From: a virus
Taxonomy: Duplodnaviria > Heunggongvirae > Uroviricota > Caudoviricetes
Length of the DNA stretch: 64,000 nt
Virus record (IMG/VR): IMGVR_UViG_3300018475_000004
Strand: one strand, 5' to 3'
Positions within the stretch are counted from its first letter, which is position 1. Each line of letters begins with the position of its first letter. Below the pieces are notes generated by a model, which ran no database searches, was not told the origin of the DNA, and saw only the letters and a list, made by a program, of their open reading frames with translations. The position numbers and the translations under genes are program-made. Positions 11,021 through 62,258 of this stretch are shown here, in pieces.

Positions 11021-11025
11021 TCATC

Positions 11026-12586: not shown

Positions 12587-12630
12587 GGGTCGATTATGAT
12601 TATTCATAATCGACCCTTATTTCATTTTTA
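12587..12630. terminator. Bidirectional rho-independent terminator at the junction of the convergent modules
   Basis: 13-bp perfect stem GGGTCGATTATGA/TCATAATCGACCC flanked by an A-run upstream and a T-run downstream. Confidence 0.7.
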
Positions 12631-13506: not shown

Positions 13507-13517
13507 ACTATCCCTCC

Positions 13518-13940: not shown

Positions 13941-13959
13941 ATACTTTCCTCCTTAGATA

Positions 13960-14676: not shown

Positions 14677-14697
14677 AATTTTTTTCCTCCTTAAATT

Positions 14698-14952
14698 TTA
14701 AGTGTTGTAGCCTAATGCACGTTTAAAGGCTTCGAACTCCTGGTCGAAATTTTGACCGCCCTACTGGGCGTAAAGGTTGCGAATTACTTTCTCTAATTCG
14801 ACAGTGCGACCAGATTGAGCTAAATTTAGGAGATTTTTTCCGAGGGGATTATCATAGGCTTGTCCTTTCAAAATTGATAACATCAATTGCTGAGGATTTT
14901 GCCCGGATTTAATCATTTGGATTAATTTATTTGGGTTTACTGGATACATCAT
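14698..14952 (-). CDS. Hypothetical small protein (84 aa, 1 TAG at 14761)
   Basis: ORF 14761..14952 extended through TAG to TAA at 14698; ribosome-binding site AGGAGGTATGA. Confidence 0.5.
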
Positions 14953-29982: not shown

Positions 29983-30008
29983 TGTTGCTCTCCTTTCTAT
30001 CCAAATAT

Positions 30009-30044
30009 AAAAAAAATGGAGAGGATAATTATATTATCCTCTCC
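30009..30044 (-). terminator. Rho-independent terminator (minus strand)
   Basis: 12-bp stem GGAGAGGATAAT/ATTATCCTCTCC followed on the minus strand by T8. Confidence 0.7.
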
Positions 30045-30107
30045 ATATAATCATCCTTCATAAGGATTTGAAAATAACAACTTATTTATTGTCCTTTTCT
30101 GTCCGAA

Positions 30108-32237: not shown

Positions 32238-32257
32238 TATTAGTAATCCTCCTTATA

Positions 32258-33679: not shown

Positions 33680-33693
33680 TCTTCAATTCCTCC

Positions 33694-35181
33694 TTAGTTC
33701 AAAGTAATTTTATGGACTTCATCAACACCCATTTTACTTGGAGCATAAACCCAAACTTCATACTCAGCAGCGGTAGCACCATTAGCACCTTCAACCATAA
33801 CATTATCTTGCTGTACATAGTCAGCAGTGCAATTATAATTCATAGATTCAGGCATAATAATTTCTTTAATACCATTACGAGTATTAGAAGCAGGAATAGC
33901 AATAATAATACGAGTAGGATTATTAATAGTTTCTGCGTCAACAGTAATAACCTTACCGGCATTATAATTCCAAGAAGTAGCTAAACCTCTAATTACAGCA
34001 GAGTCAATAGCTCCAGTACCATTATCAACACCAACAAAAGAAGCGCGATAACCAATAATAGAACTAGTAGCCTTAGTTACGGAACCACCCTTGATATATT
34101 CTGCGCTTTCTTGCTGTAAGTTATTATAGGCTTTAACACCATCAGTATAAGTAGCAGTAATTGCTACAGAATACTTAGTATCATCAGTAATGGTAATTTC
34201 TGGCATGGAGCCAGAAGCTGTATTAGCAGTATTGTTATTGGTATCAACAACACTATAACTACTAACAGTTACGCCAGTACTTTCAGGGCCAAATTCATAA
34301 CTACCAGGAGTGAAAGTAGAAGTATACTTAGGAATTACAGAAGTGCCAACTTCATAAGAAGTCTTAGTTCCATCCCAGGAGACAGTGAACTCTACATCGG
34401 TAATTGTTGGATCTTTTACCTCAGAGAACAACTTATTAAAGAACTCAGCAACATTCAAACCTGCGGCCTGAACTTCAATATTACCAGACTCTGGAATTTT
34501 TACTGTACCTACATTTTCAGTAAATACAAAATCGCTTTTGAAGTAAACATTTTCAGCGTTATAATTGCCATCCATGGCGGCCCAATTTGTACCGTCATAT
34601 ACATAAGCAGTATGCTCATACATATCATTAGCAATTAAGACTCTTACGATTGCTACATCATTTTTATGCAATTCAGCACCATTTACGATGCGAACGATTG
34701 CGGCCTCCTTGCTCTCATCTGCTTCTGCGGTTACTTGATAAACAACAGCATTAGAAGCAGCTCCTGCGCCTTCAGGAACGGCCCAAGTGCCGTCCGCACG
34801 CAAGAACATATTTTCTTCGCCCTTTGCGGGGGCTGGCACTAGGCCAGCCTTACCGTCGGACAAAGAAGAAGAGCCAACAAATACTAATGCTTCTTTACTA
34901 CAATTTACCCAAGCACCTTGAGATTGATTGTAGATTAGAAAGGAAGCATCAGATAAGTCTAAGGAATTTACAATGACATCAGATAAGTCGTTTAAACTTA
35001 GTAATTCAGATAGATCTCCGCTATTGCTTTCGCCATTACCAGCAATTAACTTATTACCTAAGTACAAGCAACCTTCACTAGCAGTAGGTTCAGCAATAAA
35101 ATACAGGGTATCAATATCTTTTTCAACCAAAGCGGCGTACTGTGTAGGAGTACCTCGCATAAACTTAACGTATCTTGCCAA
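33694..35181 (-). CDS. Tail fibre-like protein (495 aa, TTG start, no TAG)
   Basis: N-terminus FMRGTPTQYAALVEKDIDTLYFIAEP...LYLGNKLIAG has the same fibre N-domain pattern; ribosome-binding site AGGAAGGAGAG. Confidence 0.6.
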   Translation of the reverse strand: MARYVKFMRGTPTQYAALVEKDIDTLYFIAEPTASEGCLYLGNKLIAGNGESNSGDLSELLSLNDLSDVIVNSLDLSDASFLIYNQSQGAWVNCSKEALVFVGSSSLSDGKAGLVPAPAKGEENMFLRADGTWAVPEGAGAASNAVVYQVTAEADESKEAAIVRIVNGAELHKNDVAIVRVLIANDMYEHTAYVYDGTNWAAMDGNYNAENVYFKSDFVFTENVGTVKIPESGNIEVQAAGLNVAEFFNKLFSEVKDPTITDVEFTVSWDGTKTSYEVGTSVIPKYTSTFTPGSYEFGPESTGVTVSSYSVVDTNNNTANTASGSMPEITITDDTKYSVAITATYTDGVKAYNNLQQESAEYIKGGSVTKATSSIIGYRASFVGVDNGTGAIDSAVIRGLATSWNYNAGKVITVDAETINNPTRIIIAIPASNTRNGIKEIIMPESMNYNCTADYVQQDNVMVEGANGATAAEYEVWVYAPSKMGVDEVHKITLN

Positions 35182-35244
35182 TATAATCTCTCTCCTTCCT
35201 AAAAATTATTTACTTATATATATTAATTTCTCAATAGAAAGAAA

Positions 35245-43588: not shown

Positions 43589-43954
43589 TTACTTAATCAT
43601 GAACAATAATGCTTCCATCTGGGCAGCAGTCATTGTCATACCAGGATCGAGATCATCATAACTAATCATAGCAATGTCAACCTCTTGCTCAATATTAAAC
43701 AACTGAGTTAATTCAGCTTGGGCCTTATCAACATTTTCAGGTTCGACGGTATATCCACCATTTTCATTTTGAACGCCGAGTTCTTTAGCAACATTCAAAC
43801 GAGCCTCTTCAATTTCTTGAGCTAAACCCAATAAAGTCTTTTTATTCTTCTGTAAGAAGAAATTCAATTTAACAGGTAATTTTTGATTACCATCACTGAA
43901 AGCCTCCATAAGGTGACTTGCAGTATTATAAATTTCTAAATTTGTCATTTTCAT
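43589..43954 (-). CDS. Hypothetical structural protein (121 aa)
   Basis: Intact ORF; ribosome-binding site AAGGAG; TAA stop. Confidence 0.55.
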   Translation of the reverse strand: MKMTNLEIYNTASHLMEAFSDGNQKLPVKLNFFLQKNKKTLLGLAQEIEEARLNVAKELGVQNENGGYTVEPENVDKAQAELTQLFNIEQEVDIAMISYDDLDPGMTMTAAQMEALLFMIK

Positions 43955-43979
43955 AACGTATATCTCCTTTTTCTCCTTT

Positions 43980-46900
43980 TTAATCTTTAATAGTAACAGC
44001 TACTTGAATTGTACCAGAAGTTGAAACATCTTTTGTTTGAGATTTATCTTTAGTACAATAAGTATAGTAAGAACCTGATGGCGGACTACCAGCTGTTTCA
44101 GTAGTAGAAAAATAACCTCCAGAAGGTTGTGTATATGTATAACAACAAATTGTCTAAGATGCTGTAACAGTTTTATTATCTGTTGTTGTTACTGTATAAA
44201 CCCCATCTGTTCCACCAGTTACTGTTGTATCACTAGCTCCAGAAGTCACAGATACTGTAACGCTATCTTTTATTATTGATTTTATATATGCCTCTAAGCT
44301 TACAACACTACCATTACCATCTGCTACATTAACAGAAGCGGTCTTAGTACCACCTAAATAAACGCTACTAGCATATAAACCAGCGGTATTATCACCTGCT
44401 GAAAATAGTAAAGCTCCAGAAGAATTTTCTGCTGATAAATAATGACCTTTTACTTTTGCTCCTGAAGTAAATAACACTTGAGTATTATAGTCTTCCATGC
44501 CATTCGATTCTAGCGCACCAACAATTTGATAAGCAGTTATTTTTGAAGCATTTATTTTATTAGCATAAAAAGCCGTTAAAGCACTTACTGAAACACGACC
44601 ATCATCTGAAAAATATAAATAATTACCAGTACCAGAACCAAAATATATTTTATTATTACCATTTAAATAAATATTGCCAGAAACGGTCTTTCCATCCACA
44701 GTTCCTCCGATATATAAAGAATCAATTACAGTACAAGTGGTAAAAGATCCATTTGTTAAACTACAACCAAAACCTTTCATAATACCCGCTGGAGTGACAC
44801 TAAATCCACCAGTACCTGTGGGAGCTCCATCGCCGCTCTAAATATCACAATTTATAATTTTTGCATTTTTAATTACAACCTCTTTGTTATCAGCATATAA
44901 CTGATAACCAGTTTCTCCTGAGGTTGGACCTACTTTTAACACGCCACCTTCAATAGTAGCACCTGAAATAGTACCACCTGTCAAAACACCACTAACAGTT
45001 AAACTACCAAGAGTACCGCTAGTTGCATGAATTGCTCCGGTAAATTTACCACCTTGTGAATAAAAATTGCCGGCCCAATCAACTTTAAAATTAGGAATTA
45101 TATCTTCTGGATCATCATTTTCAGGATCATAGGTTTTATCAATTGTACCTATCCACAAAGGATATTGTGCGGCACTACTATCAATTCTTAATTGACCAGT
45201 AGAAGCATTACCAGCTTTTAAATTAAATGTATAAGCTGTAAATTCTCCAGTACCAAGATTAATTTCCATACCTGTTCCAGGAGTACCAGCAGCCTCTCGA
45301 ATAAAAGTATTAGAACGAATATATTGTCCCGCTTCAGAAATATGCATTAAAGTTATATCATTACCAACAATTTCTAAATAAGGTTTTGTTACTGTTCCGC
45401 TAGTACTCAATTTAACTCTACTAGAAACTAATGAAAAATTAAAAGCATCAATTTTACCAGTAGATAAATCAATTTTCATACCAGATTCAGGTTCACCAGC
45501 TGCAGTCTCACTATAATCAGCAGATTTTAGCCAGAACTTAGTACCACCAATATGCATAAGCATATTGTTACAATTATCTTTAATAACAAAATAAGGTTTA
45601 CTTGAATCTTTTGAATTTAACATTACATTCTTTGAAGTTAAATAAAAATCAAATGCATCTAATGTACCATTTTTTAAATCCAATCGCATACCGGTACCAG
45701 TAGTATCAGTAGTTGGTGTAGTTAAGCCATTAGATTCAGTCTCATTCAAAGTAAATTTTGTTTCATTATATTCGTCAGATTGTAAATAATATCCTTCTTT
45801 CTCTCCGCCGATAAACATTAAAGTTTTACCTTTAACACTATCAATCTTGAAATAAGGACTTTTTACATCAATATGAATATGACTTGCAGTATCTGCTACA
45901 TACTTACCAGTAGTAGCATCAATTTTAGCTCCCTTCATGTCAATGATACCATCATCTAAATCAATTTTCATTCCAGAAGAATCTTTTGCTTGTTCATACG
46001 AAGCACTTGTAATAGTACCTGTATTTCCATCAAACTTGATTCTACCTCTACCAGATTTACCGATAAAAGCAGTACCATCAACATTGAAATTAAAGCTTTG
46101 CGCTCCTTTGTGGAAACCATATAAGCCTACGCCAGTAGCATTATCTTCAGAGGCGGTATTTACATCGCCCAGTAAAACACCTTCAAATTGGTTTTCTGAG
46201 TTCTTGCGGCCCGCACCTACCATAGTAGACATAATAGTTCCATTCTCTTCATCAATAACTAGACTACCGTCCCATTTATTGATCATAGCAGAAGCGTATC
46301 TATTTTTCATACAATAAATTGGCTGAGCCCAAATTACTACTGCATCCTCATCTTCACAAGTAACAACTGGATAAACCATTGTACCACCATTATTTTCTAA
46401 GAAAATATGACAAGGAATCAAGCAATTTCGCTCATTCAATTTAGGCATATAACTTTGTAAAACAGCATATTGTGATTGACCCCAATCTGTGGCAGTCATA
46501 ATATCGCCATTTTCTTTATAATACATAATCTTCCAAGTTACACCAGTAACTTCAGAATCAGCTTCATGGATTACATTACCATCAGCATCAGTTTCTTCCT
46601 TACGTCTAAAAATCTTATATGGATTTTTATAATAAGTAGGATTAACTCCATCAGAGTTATAAACTACAATACCAGGACCTTCAATATAATAATTTCCAGC
46701 TGTATAAGGAACAGTATAAATAGAAATTAAATTGATAATTTCACCTAATTCATCAATAGGGTAAGGGACTGTCGCTTTCAAAATACCATTATAGTATTTT
46801 TGCAATGGACCTTCGCTCTCTTTTAAGGTGATATTAATTCTTTCAACACCATATCCTTTAGGATCACTATTGTAGACTGGTGCGGCATAATATCCAGTAG

Positions 46901-49559
46901 GACCAATCCATTCTAAACTTGCTAAGTATGGATCTGGATTATCAACTGCCGGAGCACTATCCAAAATCTTAATTCGATTATTATCATAATCATATAATGC
47001 CAGACCAAGAGGAAGATTAGCTCCATCTTCTAATACACCATCTGCCGCAGCTTTTGCGGTATTAGGAGAAATTACTAAAGTATAATCTGTTCCAGAAGTA
47101 CCAAAGCTACTAAATATTAAAGAAATCTCTGCATTGCAGTCATAATAATTAGGTTTTACAACTCTACAATAAATTGTATTATTTGTAAAACTTTGAGAAT
47201 AATAATCTTTTATGCGGTATGTAAAATATCTGTCTCGATTTGCAATTTCATAATGAACTTTTCCATCTTCGTCAGTGCTTTCTGTACCACCGATTGTTTT
47301 ATAGAAGCATACATAACCAGTCTTAGAATAAGGAGAAGTTACTCCAGGCATAGCCTTTTCATCATTAGACCAAGAACTGTCAAAATCTTCAAGTTCATAT
47401 TTCAACATAGTTGAATTTTTAGGAATGTACCAGAAAATCTGCGCTCCGTATAATGCTTCATCACCTGCGGTCAAGCCCTCATAGCGCAATAACAGTTCGC
47501 GTTTACGATAACCATCGGCCGCATTTACTAATAAGTTATTTAATCCATAAACTTGATAAGAAGGTTGAGAGTTATCTCCATGCTCAATGCGACAAGCATC
47601 AGCCTAGTCTACAATCTTCTCATCTACAGGAGGATTTGCATTTGTAAAAGTTAGAATATTACTCTTATACATATTATGATTAAAGAATAATACTGCCATA
47701 TATTTTTCTTCTACGTATTGAGTATCTAATTCTACTTCTAAAATTCCTTCTGGATTTAATGTTTTTTTAGCATTATAAATACTATCTTCACTTAGTTTTG
47801 CAGAAGGCAATCCAACATTTAATTTTTTTGATAATCTATGCCATCCTGTTTCAAGGAATCTTTCTTCTAAGTTAGCATAACCAGGTTCATACCGATACCA
47901 GTAAATACAGTATTTATTATCATATTCACTAAAATCAGTTCTTCCATAAGGCTCAAAATTATAACCTGGCAGGAAGAAAGCATCCATCTTATTGGCATCA
48001 TCAGCTAATAATGCATTCAGCTGATCGATATAACCAGTAATTGACTTTTTGACTTTTTCAATACGAGCCTCATAAGTATCATATATACTTACAAAACCAG
48101 TATATTTATCTTTTATTTCAGTCTCTGTTGCTGACAATAAAGCATCTGTATCCCCAATAACAGAATTTACTTTTTCTTTTATCTTATCAATTGTAACAGT
48201 TTGATTTGGTTTAGCTACAACAATACCATCTTGAATTTTTTTTGCCGCAGATAAAATTGTAGCATATTCTTCTGTCATAGTTTTTTGATCTTCTTCAATT
48301 TGCTAACCGACAATTGAAATTTCAGATAACAGAAGTTCAAAATCGTCTTTAAAAGTCTCAATTGATTGAATCTAATCTCGATAAGAAGTTAAGTTATTTC
48401 TTAAATCTCTTGTTAAAGCATTACGAAGATTTTTGAAAATCGGTTGAGCCTCTTCAATATCAGCTGAAATCCCTAATGCAATTTCATCATTAGGAACGTC
48501 CTTGCCCATTTGAGCGACCAAACGACTATCAACTTCACTTATTTCTAAATAAGTAATTTCATCATAACCGGGGTCATAAATACCATCACTAAAACCAATA
48601 TAAGTATTATCTTCGTCTTTATTATACCATAGCAATCCGATGTCACGAGAATTACTACCATCGTCGCTAATATTATAAATAGCACTATCGCCAGTATAAA
48701 TTTGTAAAGTATTATCTTCTACTTTAGTTAAATCTGAGCCAAAACTCAAATAAATATTCTTCACAAGAATATTACTGAAATCAACCGCAGGTAACCGCTC
48801 AGGGAAACCTTTATCATTATAAAATTCAAAATCATCATTTTGATATAAAAATAATTGAAGACTTTCAATTGTGCCCAATCCAGAAATATCGAATGTGGCT
48901 TCTTGTGTAGAATATACCATAAATGCATATGGATTACCAAACATATCTGTGGAATCTAATGATACCCATTGACTAATTGTTTGGCTATTATCATTTGTTG
49001 GTCTAACATCTAATCGTAAAATTAAACCATAAGTACCTGTTTTCATTTTATAATTAGATAAAAGACATTTAAAATCTGCCTTTAGATTAAGAGTATTATA
49101 AATACTGTTAGTTTGTAAATCTTTATAATCTGAATTAGATAAATTTACACTCCAAAGAGGAAGTTGAGTTTCATCGCCATTTGCGGTAATGCCCCAAGCA
49201 TCTACTTTACCTGGAATCAGATTATCAGTCATATCAACAACAGTTTCAGATGGAGAAATATAAGTTAAGGGATCACTGTCATCATTATAAGAATATTTAC
49301 CACTAATATAACAGTTACCCAAATCGCCTTTAATAGCAAGAACTCTTACAGTATCTCCGACATTATAATATCTACTATTGGCATCGGTTTTGGCAGTAAA
49401 TTTTGCGGCACCATCAGTTACCTGATATATGCCACTTTTCTTTTCTGTATTATCAGTAACAGTACAAATAATTGTAGTATCCATTTGGATATTTCGAATA
49501 CGCTATTCTACAACTATATCAACTGCTTTTAACAGTTCCTCAGCATAATCTATTACCAC
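43980..49559 (-). CDS. Giant tail fibre/baseplate protein (about 1859 aa, 6 TAGs) with internal tandem domains of about 70 aa
   Basis: Fragments 48372..49484, 47604..48278, 44838..47489 and 44154..44780 lie in one frame, joined by TAGs at 49503, 48372, 48303, 47604, 44838 and 44154. GTG start at 49559 follows AAAGGAG. Repeats GMKIDLxxGxIDAxxF...KPYxxI. Confidence 0.55.
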
Positions 49560-49589
49560 AACCAATATCTCCTTTCTCTCTTATAATCT

Positions 49590-49618
49590 ATTATATCATA
49601 AAAATTTAGAAAAGTCAA
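49590..49618 (-). promoter_or_regulatory. SigA-consensus promoter TTGACT-N17-TGaTATAAT (minus strand) driving the giant fibre gene
   Basis: Reverse complement reads TTGACTtttctaaatttttatgaTATAAT, then the ribosome-binding site and GTG. Confidence 0.5.
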
Positions 49619-49635
49619 TTTTTTATATTAGACCA

Positions 49636-49674
49636 AATAAGAAAAAGGGTAGGTTGTATTTCTACAACCTACCC
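49636..49674 (-). terminator. Rho-independent terminator (minus strand)
   Basis: 12-bp stem GGGTAGGTTGTA/TACAACCTACCC followed on the minus strand by a T-rich run. Confidence 0.6.
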
Positions 49675-49680
49675 AAAAAT

Positions 49681-52600
49681 TTATTTACGGTTAGCGTATT
49701 GAGAAGCACGATTGACGATAGAAGTCAAAGCAGCTTCAATTTCATATCTATCAGTTACTTCAGGGAAGCTAGCTTCAATATGAACATTTTGCTCTAATAC
49801 CTCAGAAGTTTGAGGAGCGTAATATCCAGGACTATGTAACAATCCACCTAGCTGAGAAGCAGTGCTTTGTAAGTCAATCATCTTGATAATACTACGCAAT
49901 ACTTCCATACTTGCTAAAAAGTTTTCAGTTTCACCTGGATTCAAAATCAATTCTTTTTCATGTAACATAGCGAACTTACCATAAGAACCCCAAGCTCCAG
50001 TATAACCACCAGTATCAAAACTAGAATAAGCATACTTACTTAAGTCAGAAATTCCATAACGAGTACGCCAATCTCCATTAGGATTAGTAATATCAACAAT
50101 ACGCTGGATTTCTTCGGGATCAAATCCTTTTTCATCCAACCGGTTGCGGCGGGTAGTACCGTTACCCCAACCAAAACCACCATTCCAAATTGCGAGAGCA
50201 ACTCCTTGCTTAGTAGTGTCACTATATTCTGGAGCACTTGCTTCTTTAGTACTAGTTCCAGAAGATGTGCTTGCTGTACTAGAACCTCGACCACTACCAC
50301 TAGAAGAATTACCAGAATTAGAACTTCCACTACTACCTCCGCTAGAAGAAGAACTTCCAGAAGTACCAGTTCCAGGAGGAGTGTAAGGATTAGGTTCATT
50401 GCCAATACGTACCATAAGAGTTTCATGATCCGCAATCAGTCCCTGAATCTATTGTCTTAAATTAGCGTATTTACCAGTCAATTCACTAACTTGATCCAAT
50501 TCAGACTCAATAGCGTCAATAACGCCGCCATCTTTTACGATAGAATCAGTTAAAGCATCATTAGCATCTGTAATATCTTTAACGTTATCTTCAAGAGTAT
50601 CAAGATTTGGTCCAAGAGTCTCATTAGTAATAGTATCAACATTTTCTTCCCATTCGTCAAATGCAAGATTTACATTACCAACATATTCAGTAACTGCGCG
50701 CATCCAATCTTCAGTATTGAAAATCATTTCGCTATAATCAGAAGACCAAGCATCTGCAATGACTCGACTATCTGTAGTCAATGCTATTTGATGCAGAGAA
50801 GAATAACTCTTCAATTTTTCATAATAATATTCCTTAGCTTTTAACATAGCATCTTGATATTCAGCTTCAGTTTCGAATTCACCACTCAAATACTGCTCTT
50901 GGAGTTCAGTAAATGTATCATACATTTCACTCATGGTTTGCTGATACTTTTCACTATATTCATTAGCGCCTTCCAATCCAATATTATATAAACTATTTTG
51001 TGCGTCTTCTAACTCTTGTTGCGCTTCGGCCAACTTATCTTGATCTGCGGTATATACATAACCAAGATTGCCTTCATTATCACGCTTTAATCTAACAACA
51101 GTTTTCGCATCACGAGCATCTTCTAGAGCCATCTCAGCCAATAATAAATTATATTTTGCTTGCTGAATTTCTAACTCGTATTTACTTAACTTTGTTTGAT
51201 CTTGCAATTGCTTAGTTTCATTAATAAATCCTTTTAGTTTTTGCTTTGCAATACTACTAGTGGAATTATCAATAGCTTGCTGTGCAACGCGCATCAACTT
51301 ATTAGTCTCATAAATTTGGTTAGTCGTTGTTAAATATTCTTCTTGTAGACTAGCTGCTCGCTCCATAGAAGTAGTTAAAGTATCAAAAGATGTGCCTCCG
51401 GTCAGAGCGTTCTCTAAATTTTGAGCGAAACCAGATAGTTTATTCTCCAGTATTGCTCGTAATGCATCAGCCCACTCTTCAGTTTTATCAAGCATATCTT
51501 GTTGAGCTTCCATGGCAGCAGCATTAGCAGCTTCCCATTCTTTCTGATATACTTCTGCAGCTTCAGTATTTCCTGTGGCAATAGCCTAATCAAGCAATTT
51601 CTTCTTTTCATCTGCTTCAGATTGATACATAGCATATGCTTCTTTAGCAACCTTCATTTGATTTTCAATAGTTTTTGCTTGACCTTCAAGAATAATTCCT
51701 AAACCGTTATAGTCAGTTTCTTTGCCAAGAATTTCCATTAAAGATTGATAATGTTCTAGAACTTCAGTTTGATGCTCCATACGGTCAGTATACTTCGCTA
51801 ATTCTTCCTAGGCCATATTTAGAGTTTTACTATAATACTCTTTCATAGTATTATCTAATTCAACTAAAGAACTTAAATTATCTCTAATACCAGAACGGAC
51901 TTCTTCTAAGCCTTCTTGATACATTGCTTCAGTAATTTCTCCTGCGACATAAGCTTTATTTAATCCTTGAAGAGAAGATTCATATTCTTCTAAATTAGAA
52001 ATATACTCAGTCAATTGACTATTTCCTTTTGGATTTGCTATTAAAGCAGCAGCTTCAGCCATAGAATAAAAATCATCTTCAATCTTAGATAAATAATAAT
52101 TAATTATTTCTAAATCTTCTTCATTAAAACCAATATGAAGCTCTAAACCGTCCATTATAATATCATAATTATTTTGCATAATCTAATCTTGAAGATCTTC
52201 AATGTTAATACCCAATTCTTCAAATAATTCTTTACTCTCTTCGTATAACTCCATTGCATCTTCAATGTTTTGGATCTTATTTTTTAGAGGGTCAAGAATA
52301 GTTTCTTCATAAGACTCTTGAGCTTCACCAGTAGCAAGAGAATTGTAACGAGATTCTGCGGCAGCTAACTGATTATAAAGGACAGTCATCTAGTCAGTGT
52401 AATTAGTAATATTACCTTTATCATCAAATGAGAAGGCTAATCCCGCTGCAGCTGCAGCCTATTGTAAAGCAACTTGATCTTGTTTCATATAGCGTTCTGC
52501 TTGACGCTATTTTTCAGCTAACAATTCTTGCTACTCTTCAATTAAAGCATTTTGTTCACGAAGAGCATCTAAACGATGTTCGCCCCATAATCTATCTGCA

Positions 52601-55176
52601 GATTTAGAAGCTCTATCATATTCATCAGATAAATCATCAAGCGCATCATCAATTTCTTTATATCTTTTTACTACATCAGTTTGTTTAGTGGTATCCATCT
52701 ATTTTGGTTTAGAAGGTTCTTTTGCTTTACTACCACTACTACCACCACCGCCACTGCCTGATGATACAGGTTTTCTGGTTGTATTAGTTGGACTTGGAGT
52801 TCTAGAAGCAGTTGGAGCTTTATGAGCACCATTTATCTAAATACCACGAACTTTACCTTCTTCACCCGCAGCGTTCTCAGTGACAACTTCAGTAGCAGTT
52901 GCAGTATCTTGAGTTTGATAACTTACTGGATCAACACTTACAGACTTCTAATAACTAACCATATTAGTACCATAAATTAATGGTCCAAAACCATTTGTCA
53001 TAGGCACTGCCGCAATAGACGGATGATTAGTAGTTGTAACAGTTTCAGTGAAATTTACATTATCAACTGTACGTGGAGTAGCTTCAGTTTCAGTCGTTGA
53101 TGTTTGAGAGAAAGAAGTAGCTTGTACTACACGAGAACCAGCTTGCTCTGCAATAGCTGCCATTTCTTCCATCGTACCATAGAAATCACTAACATCAGCA
53201 TCGATGTTCAAACCACTTAACAAAGCTTCAATGTCAGCTGCAGTTGCACCTGCGGCAACCTTTGCTTCAATTAAAGACCATAGCATTGGCATATTGTCTA
53301 AATCAATATAAGCACCATCATTAAATGCATTTAATTCAGCCATTAAGCCATCAAGTGTAATTCCATCAATACCTTCAATCTATAATTTTATAAAAGCCTC
53401 TCTAATTCTATCAATAGCTTCAACACTACCGTTTGCAGCTGCTTCGAAATCTGCTGGATTAATTGCTGCCATTAAATCTGCATCAATTAAATCTTCTGTA
53501 GTGCCAAGCAAACCTGCCAAAGAAGTTCTTAAAGATCTAGCAGATTTTTCATTTAATAGGTTAGCTTTTTCTAAAGGAGTTGAAGCTTTTCTTGCTGCTT
53601 TTAAAACATCTATATAATCATCATAATTATCATAAATATCAGTAATAGCTTCGTTAAGTTCCATATAACGAACAGTAGCATCTTTAACAGCTTCTTCATT
53701 GTCTTTTAAAGCTTCTGTGCCTGCTTCACCAGCATCTGCCATTTCACGGAAAGCATCTGCTACATCATTAGCGGCTTCTACATCTAACCCTTCAGCCTCA
53801 AATTCCACATCCATTACGGATTCAATTGCTTTATTATATGCTTCAGCATTAATTAATCCTTCGCGAAGCATATCATTTAAATCTCCAACTGTAGTTGCAG
53901 ACATAGCATATGCATCCATATTACGTTGGATTTCTGCATCAAACCCTTCAGTTACTTGAGATAAATTATCCCATTGCCAAGCATTTTCTTCAAGTTCGTT
54001 GCGAATTTCTCTTAATTGACGTTGGGTTAATTGTCTACCAGCTTCAATCTCTTGAATATAGCTATCAAGATTTTCTAAATCAGAACCAATTGCTTTTAAG
54101 AAAGTTAATTGATCTCCTAATTTATCATTATCTTGTTTAATCATACCTATCATATTAGTATCCATTGTAGCAATAGAATCCTTATCATAGGTACTATTTT
54201 GTAAATTATTTACATCTGCTTTTTGACCGCGTAAAGCGTCAATATTATTTTGGAATTGTTCTAAAGTTTTAGCATTAACAACATCATAGAATTCTTTTGC
54301 ATCAGCAGTTAATTTATAAGACCCATCTGCCATTTGAACAAAATAGTCAGACATATTAATGCCCATAGTTTTAAGATTATCATAATCTTCACTAGAAATA
54401 GTATCTCCAGTTTTAAGATCATCAATAATCTCATGAGCAGTTTTATAAATATCGGCCGCACCGTCAAAACCAATGTTTTGACCCTCTTGCATTAAGTCTA
54501 TTAAGTTTTCTAGCTCATTAGCAAAACCATCAGTTTCAATGCCTGCGTCTTCTAAAATTGCAGTTAAATCTTCAATATTAGTAGTTTGCCAATCAACATT
54601 TGCTAAGATTGCAGCCATTTTTCCAGCATCTTGACCAGACTTCTCAAACATTACATTTAAACTATTCTATAGAGAATCTAAACCTTCAACTCCACCCTTG
54701 GCGAAAGCATCTTGGAAGAGATCTGCCATTTGATTAGTTTGTTCTAAAGTCAAATCATCAAAAATACCAGAATCCATAGAATTTTTAAATGCTTTTTTTG
54801 CAGTGCTAGTTAAATGTTTACCAACATCATCCCAAGCATCTTCACCATCTTCAATGGCCTATTCAATTCCTGCCTATAAAGCTTCTATGGAATCATACCC
54901 CAAAGCCTTTAATTCAGCTTCATCAATAACACCATCAGCACCACCAAAAGCTTCATTTAAATAAGCAGTTTTATCTTCTGCTGATTCATATTCATTTTTT
55001 AAATCATCAAACTCAGCTCTAGTTGATTTTTCAACATTTTCATAAGCGATAATATTTTTTAATGCCTAAGCAGCTTCATTACCAGAATTATTTAATTCAT
55101 TAAATATTCCTAGTAATACATTTGCTGAATCAGCTAATAAATTATTTGCTTCTGCAGCTGCAACTGCCGCAGCCAT
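49681..55176 (-). CDS. Second giant tail protein (about 1830 aa, at least 16 TAGs); possibly the distal part of a split tape-measure protein
   Basis: Fragments 53380..54651, 52948..53343, 52183..52389, 51808..52179, 51586..51780, 50449..51513 and 49681..50415 are all in one frame, joined by TAGs. Ser/Gly linker then a C-terminal globular domain. The frame opens at 55308; the first ATG is at 55176 and has no clear ribosome-binding site. Confidence 0.5.
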
Positions 55177-55277
55177 TGTAGCCAAATCAACATTAGCTTC
55201 TTGCTTCTTACCCTCTTCATCATAATACTCATAGTCAACAGTATTATCTTTTCTAAAATTGGTGGCTTTAATTCCTC

Positions 55278-58200
55278 TTAGTTCGTCTAAGCCAGAAGCC
55301 TCTAAATATTATTCCATAAATCTTTAGCATCTTCAGTTCCAGCTCCTACCCAATTGGCAATATCAACTTCTTGATATTTTTTTAAATTATCTTGATATAA
55401 TTTATTATATATTTCTCCACTTGCTGCATATAATTCTTCACTATCTTGAGACTTTGCAAAACGCTCATCTTGACTCAAAATAGAGGTTGCGGCTAACTCA
55501 GCGGCGACTTCCATTTCTTCTGCAGCCTGATGGGTAGCACGAACAATTTCTTTTAAAGAATTAATATATTCTTCATTAGCAGTATCAATGCCTAATTTTT
55601 GAAGTTCTACAGAATCAAAAGCAGCTTCTCCCATTTCATCATAAAGAGCTACTAAATCATCAATTTGTTTTTGTTGTGCTTCATTACTAGCTTTATTTAT
55701 AAGAGCAGTATCAATAGCTCCAACAACTCCACCCGTTAATGCACCTGCTAAAACTGCTGGAGCATTACCAGTAATCATCATTGCAGCCATTCCTGTGACC
55801 ATACCTTCAACTACGCCCTACCAAATAGATTTATCATCAGTTCGAGTAAGTTTAGTTTGATCTGCCTCAGCTTTTAAACGACTAGCATTTGCATTTGCCA
55901 TTGTACTTGCAGCATATGCTTCTTGAACTTTTCCATATTGATTTTCTTTAGCCGCATCAATTGATTCTTGTTTAATAATGATTTCTCCACCGACAATATC
56001 GTAATCTTCTCCACGAATCAAATTACCAGCTTTAATTAATTGTAAAGCTGCTTCATTCGCTCCGTTTAAGGCATCTCGATATGCTTCAGTACCCTTAGTT
56101 AAATTATCAAGACTGTCTCTAGCACTTTGATAATTTTCCATAGCAGAAATCATATCTTCATAAGATTTCTTAGTTTCTTCATATGCTTCTTTCAAATTAT
56201 TTGCTGCTTCAGCAGCTTTGTTAGCAGCAATAGCATCTTTATTATATTCATCAGATAAATATTTTACTCCAGCTGCTAATGCAGTAATTACTAACGTCAA
56301 GCCTGCAACTACTAATGCAATAGGCCATAAAGCTGCCCACAATGCTCCAACACCACCTGCAGCAACTTTTGCAGAAATAGCAACACCATCAAAACCTGCT
56401 GCTGCAACAATAGAAGAAGAAACACTACCTAACATTGCAAGATTGTTTCCAGTAAAAGCAGTTGTAACCATTGGAATAACCATTCCAAGAGATGTAAAAG
56501 TGGAAAGTAATTTCTCTCCAAAACTCATATCTTCATTATTCCAAGTATCAATTAATCCTTTTACTACATTAATACTCATAGCAATATTACTAATTGTATT
56601 TGCAACTGCCATAAATTTCTGGCCGACAGTTGGTGGAGGACCTTGCATTCCACTAATAGCTTCTGCCGCAGCATCTCCATTAACTTTTATATTTTTTAAT
56701 TTTTCTGCTAAATCCGCAGTAACAATACCTTGCTGTCTCCAAGATTCAATTAACTAATCAAGAATTGCATCAACTTGAGTGCCATCCATTCCCATTCCAG
56801 TTAAAGAATTTTTAACAGTTTCTGCAGTATTTAAAGCTTCCAATGCAAGATCATCTAAATTGCTTTCAATTGCATTTAAAGTAACTACTACGCTATCTCC
56901 GTTATTTAAAGAGTGTAAAATGGCATCAAAATGTGAAATATCAAGGCCTGCCGCTTTAGCCTAATTACTCATTTCAGTCAGTTCTTTAATTATTGTTGCA
57001 CTATCTAAACCTTTATTTTGTAATTGTTTTAATTTCAAAAAAACATCATACAAAGAAGAATACTACATCTAAGCTTTTTGAGCTTCATCAATCTGAGGTT
57101 TTAAAGTTGTTTTAAAATCAACTTTTTTGTCTTCAGGATTTTTTGTATTTTGCTTCTAAACAGCATATCTTAATTGCATCTCATTTTCTCGAGTCTACTG
57201 TTCAGCTGCCTCTAAAGATTTTGCAGCAAGAATTGCTTGCTCTCCATATGCTTCATTTGCTTGTAATAAATATTGAACTTGCTTTTGATTTTCTTCTGAA
57301 AGCATCTAACCTTGAGCAGTTAATTCTTTTTGTTTTGCTAATACTACATCTGTTAAAGAAGCATATTCACTGAAAGCAATTTGAGATGCAGAATTTATAG
57401 GACCAGTGTCTACATTATCTGCATACATTGTTTTTAAAGAATTTTTTGCTTGCTCTCTAAGCTCCATTAAAGACTAAACGCCCTCTTTAGAGCGCAATTT
57501 AATATTATATCCCCAATCATCAATCGCTTTTGCCATATCTTTACCAAACATTTTAATCATGAGGCTAGATGCAACAGTAAGTACTCCAGGTAATCCACCA
57601 AGAGTGTCGATAGTATCAGAGATAATATTTAAGAAACCTGCAAAACCATTATTTAAATCAATAAAAAATTCATCGTTCAATAATTGGTTATAAATTTCTT
57701 CTGCCGCTGCAGTAACTCTATCTTTTGCAGCTTCCCAAGATTCTGCATAAATATCTGCTTGTTCTTGTAAAGTGCCAGTGGCATTATAAGCAGTATTTAA
57801 GTTAGCTGTCATACTATCAGAATCTCCAGCATTCCAGTTATCCATTAAAGCAATTAGCTAAGTATATTGACGAACGCCAGCAACAGTCTATGCTAAAGCA
57901 ATTTGTTGATCCTTCGCTAAAGTTCCCCATTTTTCAGCCATTTCATTTAGAATGTTATCCATCTTTTTGATTTCGCCATTCTACTCAAAAATGCTAATTC
58001 CAATTTTTGATAAAGCTTCTGAATATTTATTTAAAGAAGTTCCATCTTCAAGAGTTTCACCTAAATTTAAACCTTGAATACGTGCAAAAATAGTTTTTAA
58101 TGCAGTACCAACAACTTCTTCACTTTGACGAGTGTTAGAAGTAATAGTTGCTAATGCAGAAGCAGCATATTCATAACTTAAACCAATAGTCTAACCAATT

Positions 58201-59069
58201 GCCGCAAACTTTTCTAAACCGCCTGCAATTTCATCAGTACTAGATGCAGTTGCTGCACCAAGAGCAGTCATAACATCAGCATAATATTCCAAAGATTTGG
58301 AACCGTCATAGAAGTTATTCCAAACAGCAGTTAATTGATCAGAAATTTTCTAAGCACTTTCACCTGCGGCATTTGCCATTTTTACAGTTACTTCTGTTCT
58401 CTTGGCAACTTCTTCATCACTTAAACCCTATTGATAAAAAATCAAAGAAGCGTTAGTATATTCTGTAGTAGTTGTGCTTAAAGCCTAAGCTGCCGCATTA
58501 GCTTCTTTTGCAAATCGTGACATTTCATCAATATTTGCTCCAGTAACAATACGAATATTATTTAAAGATTCATTTAAATCTTGCGCGTAACCATAGGCAG
58601 ATTGTACCGCTCCCATAAAACCATGTAACATACTAGAAGACAATTGCCATCTAGCAGTATTCATAAGAGAAGTTTTAAATTCTTTTAATACACTATTTGT
58701 TCTTTTTAAAGGAACTTCAGCGTTAATAATTGCTTTTGCTAATTTAGCAAAAGCTTGATCTCCCTATGGACCTAAAGAACTTAGAGTTCTGGCATAATCA
58801 GAAATTTTTGTTTGTCCCTAACTTAAGCTCTGATTAAATTTACCTAAATCTAAACCACCAGATGCATTTTTAGAAGACTCTAACATTGCCTATAATTTAG
58901 CGACTTCATTAGTTGCCTAAGCTATATCTTTAGTAATACCAAGGCCTGTGGTATTTTTACTTGCAGTAGTCATTAAATTATTTAAAGCACTTTGTAAATC
59001 TTGGATTTGCTGTTTAGCTTGTGTATTACTTGCCGTAAATCGCAAATCTACATTTAACTGTTTAGCCAT
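55278..59069 (-). CDS. Tape measure protein (about 1263 aa, many TAGs)
   Basis: ATG at 59069 with ribosome-binding site AAAGGAG. Alpha-helical Ala/Gln/Lys-rich sequence with hydrophobic segment ALWPIALVVAGLTLVITALAAG. Fragments 57474..57845, 55818..56648 and 55302..55802 share the frame and are joined by TAGs. TAA stop at 55278. Confidence 0.6.
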
Positions 59070-59097
59070 TTAAAATACTCCTTTCTCTCCAATTTTT

Positions 59098-59146
59098 ATT
59101 TTGCAAAATAAAAATAAGCCGGTTAGATTGAAATAATCTAACCGGC
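59098..59146 (-). terminator. Hairpin with T-run (minus strand) between the chaperone-like gene and the tape-measure gene; possible attenuator
   Basis: 12-bp stem GCCGGTTAGATT/AATCTAACCGGC, then TTATTTTTATTTTG on the minus strand. Confidence 0.5.
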
Positions 59147-59193
59147 GATTATTCCTAAATAGATTGAAAATCTAGATAGGTTAATAAATGTAA

Positions 59194-59733
59194 TTAGCCC
59201 AATTTAGCCAATACATCCTTTAATAAAGCCATATTATTTGGATCAGCTAACTTACTCTGAATTTCAGTTGCATCTAAATTTAAATTACTATAATCTGCAG
59301 TAATATTTTCTAAAATACCCATAGCAGAATTACGATAATTATAAATACTTTTAATAGTATCCCAAATACTTCCTTCCAATTCCTCTAAATCTTCAGTACA
59401 AATATGACTAGTAATATCATTATATAAACCGGTACTTACTAATAAATCATACAATTTAAAAGGATCTTCTTTCTGCTTTGGAGTGAAAGTTAAATTAGTA
59501 TAAGTATATACCATTTCTAAAGTAGTATATAACTTTACTCTCATAGGATTATAGAAACCATTATCATCAGTAGACTGATTAATAATACGAGAAACTAAAT
59601 CCATTTTTTCTTTAATAGGAAGATAGTTTTTTACTTCATACTGGATAACTTCTCCCTTTGAATTTTCGTGACACATAACAAAATCACGAGAATTGATTTT
59701 CATATCAAGTTTAGAAAATGGAATTTTTGCCAT
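59194..59733 (-). CDS. Putative tail assembly chaperone (179 aa)
   Basis: Intact acidic ORF immediately upstream of the tape-measure gene. Confidence 0.4.
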   Translation of the reverse strand: MAKIPFSKLDMKINSRDFVMCHENSKGEVIQYEVKNYLPIKEKMDLVSRIINQSTDDNGFYNPMRVKLYTTLEMVYTYTNLTFTPKQKEDPFKLYDLLVSTGLYNDITSHICTEDLEELEGSIWDTIKSIYNYRNSAMGILENITADYSNLNLDATEIQSKLADPNNMALLKDVLAKLG

Positions 59734-59795
59734 TTATAAACACTCCTTTATCTCTTTTTATATATTATATCAAAAAAATTTGAGCGAGTCAAATT

Positions 59796-61121
59796 TTAAT
59801 TTCCTTTGGTAATACCAACCTTACGCTTATCAGTCATAGTCTTATCGCCTTCTAGAACAACATTACCTTGAATTAAAGCAATATAATTTTCAGTTTTTAA
59901 TAGCTGTTCCATTCTTTTAGAGAATGTCATAAAGCCGTAAGGAGTTAAAACATACTGGTTGCCCTCTTCTGATAAATGTAAAACTTTATGCATAACAGTA
60001 GCAAGACCGTAATTTGCTAAGGCATTGTAGTCAGGACTGCTATCTTTTACAACCCAAGGCTATTTTTCATTTTCAGCATCATTTAAAGTACTCAATAACT
60101 AAAAAGTTCTTCGTACTGATATATCTAAATTATCTTCACCATATTCGCCAATAGAAACACTTGTAGAAGCATTCTAGTTCCATGGCAACTGATTCTTACC
60201 AGACTTAGCCTGAATATTAATAGATTGTAAATTAGTAAGTACGTCATAAGTCTCATCTGTGATTGAAATCTATTTATTTTGACCATTGGCGGCTTCTATA
60301 TCCTAAAATAATTTAGACAAAGGAGCTTTTATATATTTATCAGATCCTACTGGACGATATTCAACCTCTATATCATTTAAAATATCTGGACTAGTAATAT
60401 CAAAAGCAATTAAGTCTTGAATTAACTAACCTCTATGTCTACCTTTTCTACCATCTGTATTTAAATAAACACTACCTAAACGAATACTTTCAATATTTGG
60501 GATCTTTAATTTTCTAAAAAAAGCAACACCTAATTCTTCTAATGTATCACCCTTCATTTGATTTACATTTTTTAAAAATTCATTTACAACACCACTATCA
60601 AATGAAGTAATGCCGCAAGCATTTAATGCAGTTTGAACTTTTTCAAGAGTTGCTCCCATTACAGTTTGATTTCCAAATTCATTTACAGAAGAAATGTTTA
60701 ATTCAGTCATTAATTCAGTTAATGATTTTTCTAAGGCTTTTAAAGCATTTTGTAAATATTTCCATGCATTTTGACTTTTCTATTCATCTTTACTTGCCCA
60801 ATAAAATCTATTCATTGTCGTGACAAAGTGCTCTATCATTTCATTGATTCTATCTGCTTCGTCTCCTTCAAATGAATCTATTACAGTTTGAAAATTTTCT
60901 TTACCCAAACCATCTAAGTTTTTAAATTTAGAATCCATTATTGCATTTTCACATTCACGAATTTTTGCAATCTAATAGTTTCTAATTGCAGTGTTATCTG
61001 GCACTGAAACTTGGTTTAATAAAGAATACTATGGAGTTCCGCTATAAGGGTCCCAAAAAGGATTTTTATCGGCATATCCTTCAATAATATTTCTTCTAGC
61101 AAATTCACTACCAATACCCAT
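59796..61121 (-). CDS. Tail structural protein (about 441 aa, several TAGs)
   Basis: Fragments 60426..60710 and 59796..59993 share a frame with ATG 61121; ribosome-binding site GGAGAGAAAGG; joined by TAGs. Confidence 0.45.
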
Positions 61122-61205: not shown

Positions 61206-62258
61206 TTACATCAAATACTTCTCGTGAGCAGGATCGTGAGAAGTACGAGTACGTGCTCCGACTTCAGCAGCGTTACCAGTCTGGATGATCTGGATAGCAG
61301 CTAGAACCTTCTTAGTAGGATCGAAGCGAGTGTAGTCTGGGAATGCGTCCATGGTGAAGGTGAAAGTAGATGGATCACCAGAAGAAGCCATGGTGAAAGT
61401 GAAGTTAGACTGAATCTTGCAGTTAGGAATGATGAACTCAGCAGGCATATCAACACCGTTAGTATCACGGAATAGAGTAGAAGCCTCTAAGTAGTAGTTA
61501 CCACCGAACTTGTCGGGAGTAATCTCAATCTGCTGTGCGGCAGATGCGTGTTCAACATAATAGTCGACCAATACGACATCTTCGTTAGCAAATACATTTA
61601 CTTCATCAAAACCAGGGTTAGCTTCACGAGAAGGTCTTGCGCCAGTGACAGCGGCACCATTCAATACAATCATCCAACCATCGGCCTCGTCTTCAGAAGT
61701 ACCATCAGCCATAGGTGCATACCAATCGCTCTCTTCATCAAAGACAACAGCGGTAACAGCATTGTGATCAGGAATATATGGTTCAGTAGCAACTTCGCCA
61801 TTATCTAACTTCATAACATAAATTAAATCTTCATGAGCACCAACTAAAGCACCATCAGCATTCATTTTACCAACGTAAGGCTTTTGAGTCAAAACAATCT
61901 GAACTTCAGTACCTTCAACTCTAACCTTATTAGTCTGCTCAGTAGTGTGAACCTTTAGAGTGTTCTTAGAAGTAGCCTCAACCAAGCCAGCACCAGATAG
62001 AATCATGAAGCCAGCGGGAGAGATCAATGCATCTTCCATAGTGAAAGTAACAGTTCTCTCACCTTCCCAAGCGATTAGACGAGAGTTACCACGACCGCCC
62101 TGTGCGTAAGAAGTAGTAGCAGTACCTTCCATGCTGGAAGTCTTCAAAGTGTCGAAATAAATAACAGGCTCATTCTTATAGAAGACTTTATTACCAACCT
62201 TCTGAGCGGCCTTTGCCTTTAGAACGACATCACAAATTTCGCGAACGCCAAATTTCAT
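61206..62258 (-). CDS. Major tail (tube/sheath-like) structural protein (350 aa)
   Basis: Intact ORF with strong ribosome-binding site AAGGAGG; leads the tail gene cluster; C-terminal beta-rich region FTFTMASSGDPSTFTFTMDAF. Confidence 0.45.
   Translation of the reverse strand: MKFGVREICDVVLKAKAAQKVGNKVFYKNEPVIYFDTLKTSSMEGTATTSYAQGGRGNSRLIAWEGERTVTFTMEDALISPAGFMILSGAGLVEATSKNTLKVHTTEQTNKVRVEGTEVQIVLTQKPYVGKMNADGALVGAHEDLIYVMKLDNGEVATEPYIPDHNAVTAVVFDEESDWYAPMADGTSEDEADGWMIVLNGAAVTGARPSREANPGFDEVNVFANEDVVLVDYYVEHASAAQQIEITPDKFGGNYYLEASTLFRDTNGVDMPAEFIIPNCKIQSNFTFTMASSGDPSTFTFTMDAFPDYTRFDPTKKVLAAIQIIQTGNAAEVGARTRTSHDPAHEKYLM

What the first reader, a model, noticed from the sequence alone, without database searches (positions are those of the whole stretch)
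55278..55311. Tape measure region is split between two reading frames, giving about 3100 aa of TMP-like coding over 9.4 kb
The frame opened by ATG 59069 (alpha-helical TMP-like, with a hydrophobic segment) ends at TAA 55278. A second, -1-shifted frame opens at 55308 and runs TAG-interrupted to TAA 49681, about 1830 aa. The two frames overlap by about 30 nt. The second frame has no convincing ribosome-binding site or start (first ATG at 55176), and there is no X-XXY-YYZ slippery heptamer at the junction. It could be two large adjacent tail proteins, a genuine split, or an indel.
Basis: seen in the sequence. Interest (0 to 1): 0.55.

Follow-up and report, generated by a model that had tools for sequence, protein, structure and literature searches.

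The report
One tape-measure gene, one missing base
The "split" tape measure is a single ordinary 3129-residue phage tail tape-measure gene, read with TAG as glutamine, whose frame is broken only because this copy lacks one A that every near-identical copy elsewhere has.

Summary
On the minus strand, frame A (ATG 59069 to TAA 55280-55278) and the -1 frame B (open from 55308 to TAA 49683-49681) overlap by 31 nt. Both are interrupted only by TAG. There is no start or slippery site at the junction.

The cause is mundane. Four separately assembled metagenome contigs are 100% identical to the window over up to 20.6 kb, apart from one base. They read TGG AAT AAA TAT TTA GAG (W-N-K-Y-L-E); the window has AA instead of AAA at 55310-55309.

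Restoring that A gives one ORF of 9390 nt: 3129 aa, 36 in-frame TAG and one terminal TAA.
- The intact junction product is on record on 23 contigs; the deletion product is on none.
- Relatives have one continuous tape measure: 3168 aa (two ENA calls), 3235 aa (L003), 3149 aa (phAss-1) and 2673 aa (Enterococcus phage VRE9_2).
- A matches the front and B the extreme C-terminus of the same tape-measure profiles.

So this is one TMP gene of a TAG-to-Gln, phAss/SPbeta-like gut siphovirus with a private 1-nt deletion. The deletion is either a sequence error or a very recent null mutation; reads are needed to tell. It is not two genes and not programmed frameshifting. Low interest.

The parts
49681..59069 (-). 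Single tail tape measure protein (TMP) gene. With one A restored it is 9390 nt, 3129 aa, 36 in-frame TAG (read as Gln) and a terminal TAA.
   Evidence: Repaired ORF built. The junction is 100% identical to P0006/P0007. Single-HSP alignments across the junction to P0001 (40%), P0002 (34%) and P0012 (67%) come.
55309..55310 (-). Site of the 1-nt deletion. The window has AA where four otherwise identical contigs have AAA (TGG AAT AAA TAT TTA GAG).
   Evidence: It is the only difference in 10,174, 9,594, 20,622 and 2,418 aligned bases (L001, L002, L006, L007).
55278..55310 (-). Spurious out-of-frame tail of 'frame A' (N-I-Q-R-L-L-A-Q-T-N-stop), created by the deletion. It includes two out-of-frame TAGs (55304, 55289) and TAA 55280.
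   Evidence: The homologues' sequence continues in frame B from here.
57876..58496 (-). TMP core domain (Pfam PF10145 PhageMin_Tail, TP901-type), aa 192-398.
   Evidence: E 5.9e-27, 95.3 bits against a cutoff of 33.2. TIGR01760 hits the close relative P0010.
56253..56384 (-). Hydrophobic (putative membrane-inserting) segments, aa 896-939.
   Evidence: Kyte-Doolittle scan.
55698..55757 (-). Second hydrophobic segment, aa 1105-1124.
50095..50169 (-). Single CW_7-type cell-wall-binding repeat near the TMP C-terminus.
   Evidence: Pfam PF08230, E 1.3e-7. It matches the CW_7 repeats of a PDB lysozyme, 5i8l, and gives weak endolysin PHROG hits.
49684..50061 (-). Conserved TMP C-terminal end.
   Evidence: It matches positions 2542-2675 of 2675 in phrog_34405 (tail length tape measure protein), E 1.5e-15. 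It is 46-62% identical to the C-termini of P0004, P0010 and P0012.
61206..62258 (-). Tail tube gene upstream of the TMP.
   Evidence: The identical 350-aa product in L001/L006 is annotated PF27173 YomU_Tube. phrog_2729 hit at E 4.8e-55, the same PHROG that lies upstream of the TMP in VRE9_2.
59194..59733 (-). 179-aa gene immediately upstream of the TMP, in the position of a tail assembly chaperone. The function is inferred from position only.
   Evidence: phrog_30570 at E 9.7e-16. A phrog_30570 gene also lies between the tube and the TMP in Enterococcus phage VRE9_2.

Best explanation
There is one gene here: the tail tape measure protein of a large siphovirus that reads TAG as glutamine (code 15) and is related to phAss-1 and SPbeta-like phages. 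Translation should start at ATG 59069 and run 3129 codons to TAA 49683-49681. The N-terminal part carries the TP901-type core and the hydrophobic segments. The C-terminal part carries a CW_7 wall-binding repeat and the conserved TMP end. In this particular sequence, one A of an AAA run is missing (window 55310-55309). That throws the reading frame by one, creates a 10-codon nonsense tail ending at TAA 55280, and leaves the remaining 1875 codons in the -1 frame without a start. The break has no function. It is either an error in this sequence or assembly, or a very recent loss-of-function mutation private to this sample's phage or prophage population. I lean slightly towards error (about 55:45), but only reads can decide. 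Shown: the deletion, its privacy, and the single-ORF state in all relatives. Inferred: that the protein works as a length ruler, which follows from the established role of TMPs, and a predicted tail of roughly 450-490 nm at about 1.5 A per residue.
For: 1. L001, L002, L006 and L007 come from four JGI samples. They are identical to the window over 10,174, 9,594, 20,622 and 2,418 nt except for one extra A at the junction, which puts A and B in one frame.
2. The repaired ORF has exactly one stop, at its end.
3. The intact-junction product 'DLWNKYLEASG' (P0006/P0007) is on 9 + 14 contigs. The deletion-allele products (166 aa, 159 aa, and the orphan 36 aa) are not on record.
4. P0010 and P0012 are single 3168-aa proteins in the same 90% cluster as the window's 276-aa TMP fragment (A aa 808-1083).
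5. P0001 and P0002 align across the junction in single HSPs.
6. The L003 TMP is one frame of 3235 aa with one in-frame TAG. The phAss-1 TMP is one frame of 3149 aa with 110 TAGs (PMC10607447). The VRE9_2 TMP is one CDS of 2673 aa.
7. A and B match the front or middle and the extreme C-terminal end of the same PHROG TMP profiles.
8. There is no slippery heptamer, and no start codon in frame B before the TTG/ATG near 55185/55176.
9. TAG aligns with Q at conserved columns 195, 214, 394 and 404.
10. The rest of the window shows 0 differences over 21,422 nt against L008 and 1 SNP over 19,446 nt against L009, so the deletion is a lone event.
Against: Nothing argues for a functional split. What stays open is error versus real mutation. 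The assembly is otherwise essentially perfect over about 61 kb, and short-read assemblies rarely drop a base in a 3-nt run, which favours a real variant. Some contigs carrying this phage exceed 200 kb. It may therefore sit in a host chromosome as a prophage, where a null mutation in its largest gene would be tolerated. The JGI sample identifiers are near-consecutive, so the four 'independent' contigs may come from one project and one source population.
Confidence: 0.93

Rival explanations
1. Programmed -1 ribosomal frameshifting (or another recoding event) at the A/B overlap. It would yield a short product A and a fused A-B tape measure, by analogy with the G/GT tail chaperone pair.
For: B is in the -1 frame relative to A and the overlap is short, 31 nt. 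A reassigned TAG codon (55304), which could be decoded slowly, sits right at the shift point.
Against: There is no X_XXY_YYZ heptamer in or near the overlap. P-site re-pairing AUU to UAU is not possible (read directly from the sequence). Sequences identical on both sides for kilobases are simply in frame thanks to one more A. No relative at any distance keeps a two-frame arrangement. The homology-defined join falls exactly at the missing base (W-N-K-Y-L-E against P0001's A-K-Y-A-K-Q).
Confidence: 0.02
2. Two separate adjacent tail proteins. A (1263 aa) would be the tape measure, and B (about 1830 aa from ATG 55176 or TTG 55185) an independently initiated tail or lysis-associated protein.
For: Under the sequence as given, both frames are long and open. 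An AGAGGA purine run lies at 55278-55273.
Against: No start codon lies at a usable distance from that purine run. Homology to single-chain relatives runs through the 44 codons upstream of the first ATG of B. A lacks the conserved TMP C-terminal end and B carries it. No relative has two genes.
Confidence: 0.02
3. The deletion is real and tolerated or selected. In this reading, a phage variant uses the 1263-aa N-terminal fragment as a shorter ruler, or a phase-variable on/off switch acts at the A-run.
For: The assembly is otherwise clean, so a true variant is plausible. The deletion lies in a homopolymer, although a short one.
Against: A run of 2-3 A is far too short for known slipped-strand phase variation (established knowledge). 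The truncated product would lack the conserved C-terminal end found in all relatives. The allele is on record in none of about 23 contigs.
Confidence: 0.03

Closest known systems
Tape measure proteins of phAss-1 and the proposed 'Phassvirus' group (human-gut, code-15 siphoviruses of about 136 kb; PMC10607447)
   Same: They have a single very long TMP ORF (3149, 3150 and 3209 aa) riddled with TAG read as Gln. Their genomes encode a DNA polymerase III alpha subunit, an anaerobic ribonucleotide reductase system and a flagellin-like protein, and were compared with Spbetavirus. I verified the phAss-1 TMP as one frame of 3149 aa with 110 TAGs.
   Different: The window's TMP N-terminus is only about 31% identical to phAss-1. 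It uses far fewer TAGs (36 against 110). No suppressor tRNA lies in this 64-kb window. The window copy carries the 1-nt deletion.
TMPs of large standard-code Firmicutes siphoviruses (Enterococcus phages VRE9_2/EF1, phrog_34405; SPbeta-like structural module)
   Same: Same PHROG families at both ends of the protein. The same upstream tube (phrog_2729) and phrog_30570 genes are present. Relatives carry YomU/YomV/YomW/YonB/YonD-type genes. The TMP is one CDS of 2673 aa.
   Different: They use the standard code and are about 29% identical. Their TMP is about 450 aa shorter.
Lambda G/GT-type programmed -1 frameshift in tail assembly chaperones
   Same: Two overlapping frames in a tail module with a -1 relationship.
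   Different: The G/GT frameshift lies in the chaperone genes upstream of the TMP, has a slippery heptamer and is conserved across phages (established knowledge). Here there is no heptamer and no conservation: identical relatives are in frame.
Extremely long tails and TMPs, for example Thermus phage P74-26 (tail of nearly 1 um; PMC10034513)
   Same: A very long tape measure implies a very long flexible tail.
   Different: At 3129 aa this TMP is long but not a record. Tail length was not measured here.

Membership tests
Phage tail tape measure protein (TP901-type core, PF10145/TIGR01760) | Presence of the PhageMin_Tail / tape_meas_TP901 core domain above the curated cutoff | tested here: met
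   PF10145 at aa 192-398, 95.3 bits against a cutoff of 33.2. TIGR01760 scores 99.2 bits on the close relative P0010.
Phage tail tape measure protein (TP901-type core, PF10145/TIGR01760) | Position in the tail module: downstream of the tube and chaperone-position genes, upstream of large distal tail proteins | tested here: met
   Tube at 61206-62258 (YomU_Tube / phrog_2729) and the phrog_30570 gene at 59194-59733 lie upstream. An 1834-aa protein and 948- and 965-aa proteins lie downstream. The layout matches VRE9_2 and L003.
Phage tail tape measure protein (TP901-type core, PF10145/TIGR01760) | One continuous polypeptide whose C-terminal end is the conserved TMP terminus | tested here: met
   Met after restoring the base present in all identical relatives: 3129 aa and one stop. 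The C-terminal 126 aa match the last 134 positions of phrog_34405. In the window sequence as given, the ORF is broken.
Phage tail tape measure protein (TP901-type core, PF10145/TIGR01760) | Protein length sets tail length | not testable with these tools
   This needs electron microscopy of particles. The prediction of 450-490 nm is inference only.
Programmed -1 ribosomal frameshift site | Slippery heptamer X_XXY_YYZ in the zero frame within the overlap | tested here: not met
   No XXXYYYZ in any frame in 55330-55270.
Programmed -1 ribosomal frameshift site | The two-frame arrangement is conserved in relatives | tested here: not met
   Four identical contigs and all homologues are in one frame.
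Programmed -1 ribosomal frameshift site | Downstream stimulatory RNA structure | not tested
   Not pursued, because two defining features had already failed.
Code-15 (TAG to Gln) phages, phAss/SPbeta-like group | In-frame TAG in conserved structural genes, aligned with Gln in homologues | tested here: met
   36 TAGs in the TMP. Q stands opposite TAG at conserved columns 195, 214, 394 and 404 in P0001, P0002, P0003 and P0005, with two exceptions among those 16 cells (K in P0003 at 195, T in P0001 at 404). Other late genes carry 1-9 TAGs.
Code-15 (TAG to Gln) phages, phAss/SPbeta-like group | TAG not used as a terminator | tested here: met
   32 major ORFs end in TAA (25) or TGA (7) and none needs TAG.
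Code-15 (TAG to Gln) phages, phAss/SPbeta-like group | Phage-encoded suppressor tRNA(CUA) | tested here: inconclusive
   ARAGORN finds no tRNA in the window. The window is only 64 kb of a genome whose relatives' contigs are 134-206 kb.
Code-15 (TAG to Gln) phages, phAss/SPbeta-like group | Close sequence relationship to phAss-1 (genus level) | tested here: not met
   Megablast of the TMP region finds no phage record. The TMP N-terminus is about 31% identical to phAss-1. This is the same broad group, not the same genus.

The most novel reading that the evidence does not exclude
The AA allele is real in the source population, and full-length tape measure is still made at a low level by non-canonical -1 decoding at AAU-AUU-UAG. 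A slowly decoded, reassigned TAG codon in the A site would promote the frame change, so a recoded stop would double as a frameshift stimulator.
Probability: 0.02. Interest if true: 0.55.

Novelty: not a real feature. Interest (0 to 1): 0.07.

Why it matters
It matters mainly for annotation hygiene. The region should be annotated as one 3129-aa tape measure gene under translation table 15, flagged as frameshifted or as a possible sequence error at 55309-55310. It should not be annotated as two tail proteins or as a recoding site. It also illustrates that in TAG-recoded phages a frame break can only be judged after the code is set correctly and strain-level relatives are compared. The underlying gene is an unremarkable member of a kind already described: very long TMPs of code-15, SPbeta/phAss-like gut siphoviruses.

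Tried and rejected
- Megablast of 49000-60000 against annotated phages found no match.
- tblastn of the junction fragment P0006 against phages found no match, because this part of the TMP is variable.
- The search for related loci in IMG/VR with a junction-spanning fusion found no confirmed relative.
- Exact or gapped junction pattern scans of metagenome contigs, viral contigs and genome contigs gave 0 matches. These collections evidently do not hold the JGI, ENA or Logan contigs that the look-up of encoding contigs reaches.
- Pfam on seven neighbouring proteins gave no hits in this copy. Context was taken instead from precomputed Pfam labels and PHROGs.
- A catalytic hydrolase domain in the C-terminal 244 or 354 aa was not found with Pfam, NCBIfam, PHROGs or PDB sequence search. 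Only a CW_7 binding repeat turned up. No structure prediction was run because it would not change the verdict.
- I considered a second frame break at 43589-44188. It is a normal small gene starting downstream of the stop of the 1866-codon ORF.
- I considered programmed frameshifting, transcriptional slippage (an A-run of 2-3 is far too short) and an internal start. All were rejected for the reasons given under rival explanations.

Full report
**1. Observation.**
I read the junction on the minus strand and mapped every stop codon in the three minus-strand frames between 60.5 and 49 kb.
- One frame carries no TAA or TGA from just after TAA 59072 down to TAA 55280-55278, but has 22 TAGs.
- The -1 frame is closed by TAA 55311-55309. 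It then carries no TAA or TGA until TAA 49683-49681, but has 16 TAGs.
- The other frames are full of all three stops.

ORF calling with TAG as sense gives A = 55278..59069 (1263 aa, starting at ATG 59069) and B = 49681..55308 (1875 codons, first ATG at 55176). The overlap is 31 nt. No XXXYYYZ heptamer exists in 55330-55270. Only B's length was slightly underestimated.

**2. Genetic code and context.**
- Many minus-strand late genes carry in-frame TAGs, while the plus-strand replication genes carry none. These include a DnaE-type Pol III alpha and an anaerobic ribonucleotide reductase.
- All 32 major ORFs terminate with TAA or TGA.
- At the conserved TMP columns 195, 214, 394 and 404, the homologues P0001, P0002, P0003 and P0005 mostly have Gln opposite the window's TAG. 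This indicates TAG-to-Gln, translation table 15.
- No tRNA lies in the window.
- The tube gene upstream is 61206-62258. Its identical product in L001/L006 is labelled YomU_Tube, and it hits phrog_2729.
- The 179-aa gene just before A hits phrog_30570.
- The same two PHROGs lie upstream of the 2673-aa TMP of Enterococcus phage VRE9_2.
- A more distant relative's contig (L003, 134 kb) has YonD/YonB/YomW/YomV/YomU-type genes upstream of its TMP, an SPbeta-like structural module.

**3. A and B are the two ends of one protein family.**
- A has Pfam PhageMin_Tail at aa 192-398 (E 5.9e-27) and hydrophobic segments at aa 896-939 and 1105-1124.
- B has a CW_7 repeat.
- B's last 126 residues match positions 2542-2675 of the 2675-position profile phrog_34405, 'tail length tape measure protein'. 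They also match the C-terminal part of phrog_4211.
- An A fragment matches phrog_4211 positions 916-1091, and the N-terminus of the close relative matches the front of both profiles.

**4. Homologues read straight through.**
- A junction-spanning query found P0001 (1651 aa) and P0002 (1967 aa).
- With blastp, the fused model aligns to P0001 over aa 1-1610 (40%) and to P0002 over aa 1-1628 (34%). Each is a single HSP across the junction at about aa 1255.
- P0001's text around the junction is '...KDAMAKYAKQMGLDQLNGYKVTNFKKGGNVEYTYIDKNGEKQ'. It aligns with A's '...KDLWNN' followed by B's 'YLEASGLDELRGIKATNFRKDNTVDYEYYDEEGKKQ'.
- P0001 itself stops at a single in-frame TAG. The L003 frame continues with clear homology, giving a 3235-aa TMP.
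- The 90% cluster containing the window's 276-aa fragment also holds two ENA proteins of 3168 aa, which are single full-length TMPs.
- The phAss-1 TMP is one frame of 3149 aa with 110 TAGs. This agrees with the published 3149, 3150 and 3209 aa for that group (PMC10607447).

**5. The cause of the break.**
- Looking up the window's own code-11 fragments returned strain-level contigs. In L001 and L002 the gene after the 276-aa fragment is 245 aa instead of 166 aa.
- Base-by-base comparison shows L001, L002, L006 and L007 are identical to the window over 10,174, 9,594, 20,622 and 2,418 nt, except for one column. These contigs come from JGI samples 3300022589, 3300018427, 3300018430 and 3300019376. 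They read GGAATAAATATTTAGAGG and the window reads GGAATAATATTTAGAGG.
- In the relatives the codons are TGG AAT AAA TAT TTA GAG = W N K Y L E, and the 'KY' matches P0001.
- Restoring the A gives one ORF of 9390 nt, 3129 aa, with a single terminal stop and 36 TAGs. It is 100% identical to P0006/P0007 across the junction.
- The intact-junction product is on 9 + 14 contigs.
- The products expected from the deletion allele are not on record anywhere. These are 166 aa, 159 aa with the alternative start, and the orphan 36-aa ORF on the B side.

**6. Error or mutation?**
- The rest of the window is essentially identical to public relatives: 0 differences over 21,422 nt against a Logan contig and 1 SNP over 19,446 nt against an ENA contig.
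- The deletion is therefore the only indel in about 61.5 kb. The assembly is not generally error-prone.
- That leaves an isolated consensus error or a very recent, private loss-of-function mutation. The second is plausible if the element is a prophage, since some carrying contigs exceed 200 kb.
- I cannot separate these without reads. Either way the split is not a conserved or designed property of the gene.
- One caveat applies. The JGI sample identifiers are near-consecutive, so the four assemblies may sample one source community.

**7. Rivals.**
- Programmed -1 frameshifting fails on the slippery site, on possible re-pairing (AUU to UAU), and above all on conservation, because identical flanks are in frame in the relatives.
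- Two separate genes fails for three reasons. Homology to single-chain relatives covers the 44 codons upstream of B's first ATG. A lacks the conserved TMP terminus, which B carries. No relative has two genes.
- Phase variation fails because the run is only 2-3 A.

**8.
The C-terminal 244 aa show no catalytic hydrolase domain by Pfam, NCBIfam, PHROGs or PDB sequence search. They show one CW_7-type peptidoglycan-binding repeat, like those of a PDB lysozyme (5i8l), and the conserved TMP end.

**9. Comparison and novelty.**
- Very long single-ORF TMPs in TAG-recoded gut siphoviruses of about 135 kb, compared with SPbeta, are already published (PMC10607447).
- Standard-code relatives such as VRE9_2 have 2673-aa TMPs.
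- Much longer tails are known, for example P74-26 at nearly 1 um (PMC10034513).
- The window's phage is a distant member of this broad group, about 31% identical in the TMP N-terminus to phAss-1. It is nothing categorically new.
- The feature flagged, a two-frame split, is not a real biological feature.

**Verdict.** This is an ordinary tape measure gene carrying a private single-base deletion. Interest is low.

Noticed in passing
window 23512-35205 (minus strand): A contiguous block of four late-strand genes has zero in-frame TAG in about 3,860 codons, although TAG-bearing genes flank it on both sides. The block comprises a 2156-aa protein with BspA-type leucine-rich repeats and proteins of 709, 473 and 488 aa. 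It may be a recently exchanged receptor-binding cassette or a differently timed transcription unit.
   Followed up: partly
window 1-12600 (plus strand) versus 35245-64000 (minus strand): Code usage is partitioned. The replication genes (DnaE-type Pol III alpha at 2426-6391, NrdD at 7242-9446) have no TAG and often end in TGA. The structural genes end in TAA and carry 1-36 TAGs. This is the early/late pattern described for recoded phages.
   Followed up: partly
whole window: ARAGORN finds no tRNA gene of any kind, so the suppressor tRNA(CUA) expected for TAG-to-Gln decoding must lie elsewhere in the genome or be supplied otherwise.
   Followed up: no
L003:10001-19711 (ENA XIAO16-1 scaffold_16, 134 kb): A 40%-identical relative has only one in-frame TAG in its 3235-aa TMP, and TAA ends all 13 other genes called in the locus. 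It is a lightly recoded relative. Its gene caller split the TMP into 1651- and 1542-aa 'genes' at that TAG.
   Followed up: partly
L009 (ENA ERZ27248370 k141_2695036, 203-kb contig) and other carrying contigs of 0.2-1 Mb: Several contigs carrying this phage are much longer than the 134-143 kb typical of relatives. That suggests either a larger genome or integration as a prophage in a host chromosome. This bears on whether a null mutation would be tolerated.
   Followed up: no
window 43589-43954 (minus strand): A small ORF overlaps the 3' end of the 1866-codon tail ORF and looked like a possible second frame break. It is a normal separate gene starting MKMTNLEIY, downstream of that protein's stop.
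   Followed up: yes
L005 (GenBank OQ749652, phAss-1) 5261-14713: The copy of the phAss-1 record held here annotates the TMP region as many short 'hypothetical protein' fragments, although the paper describes a 3149-aa TMP under table 15. The single frame was confirmed directly.
   Followed up: yes
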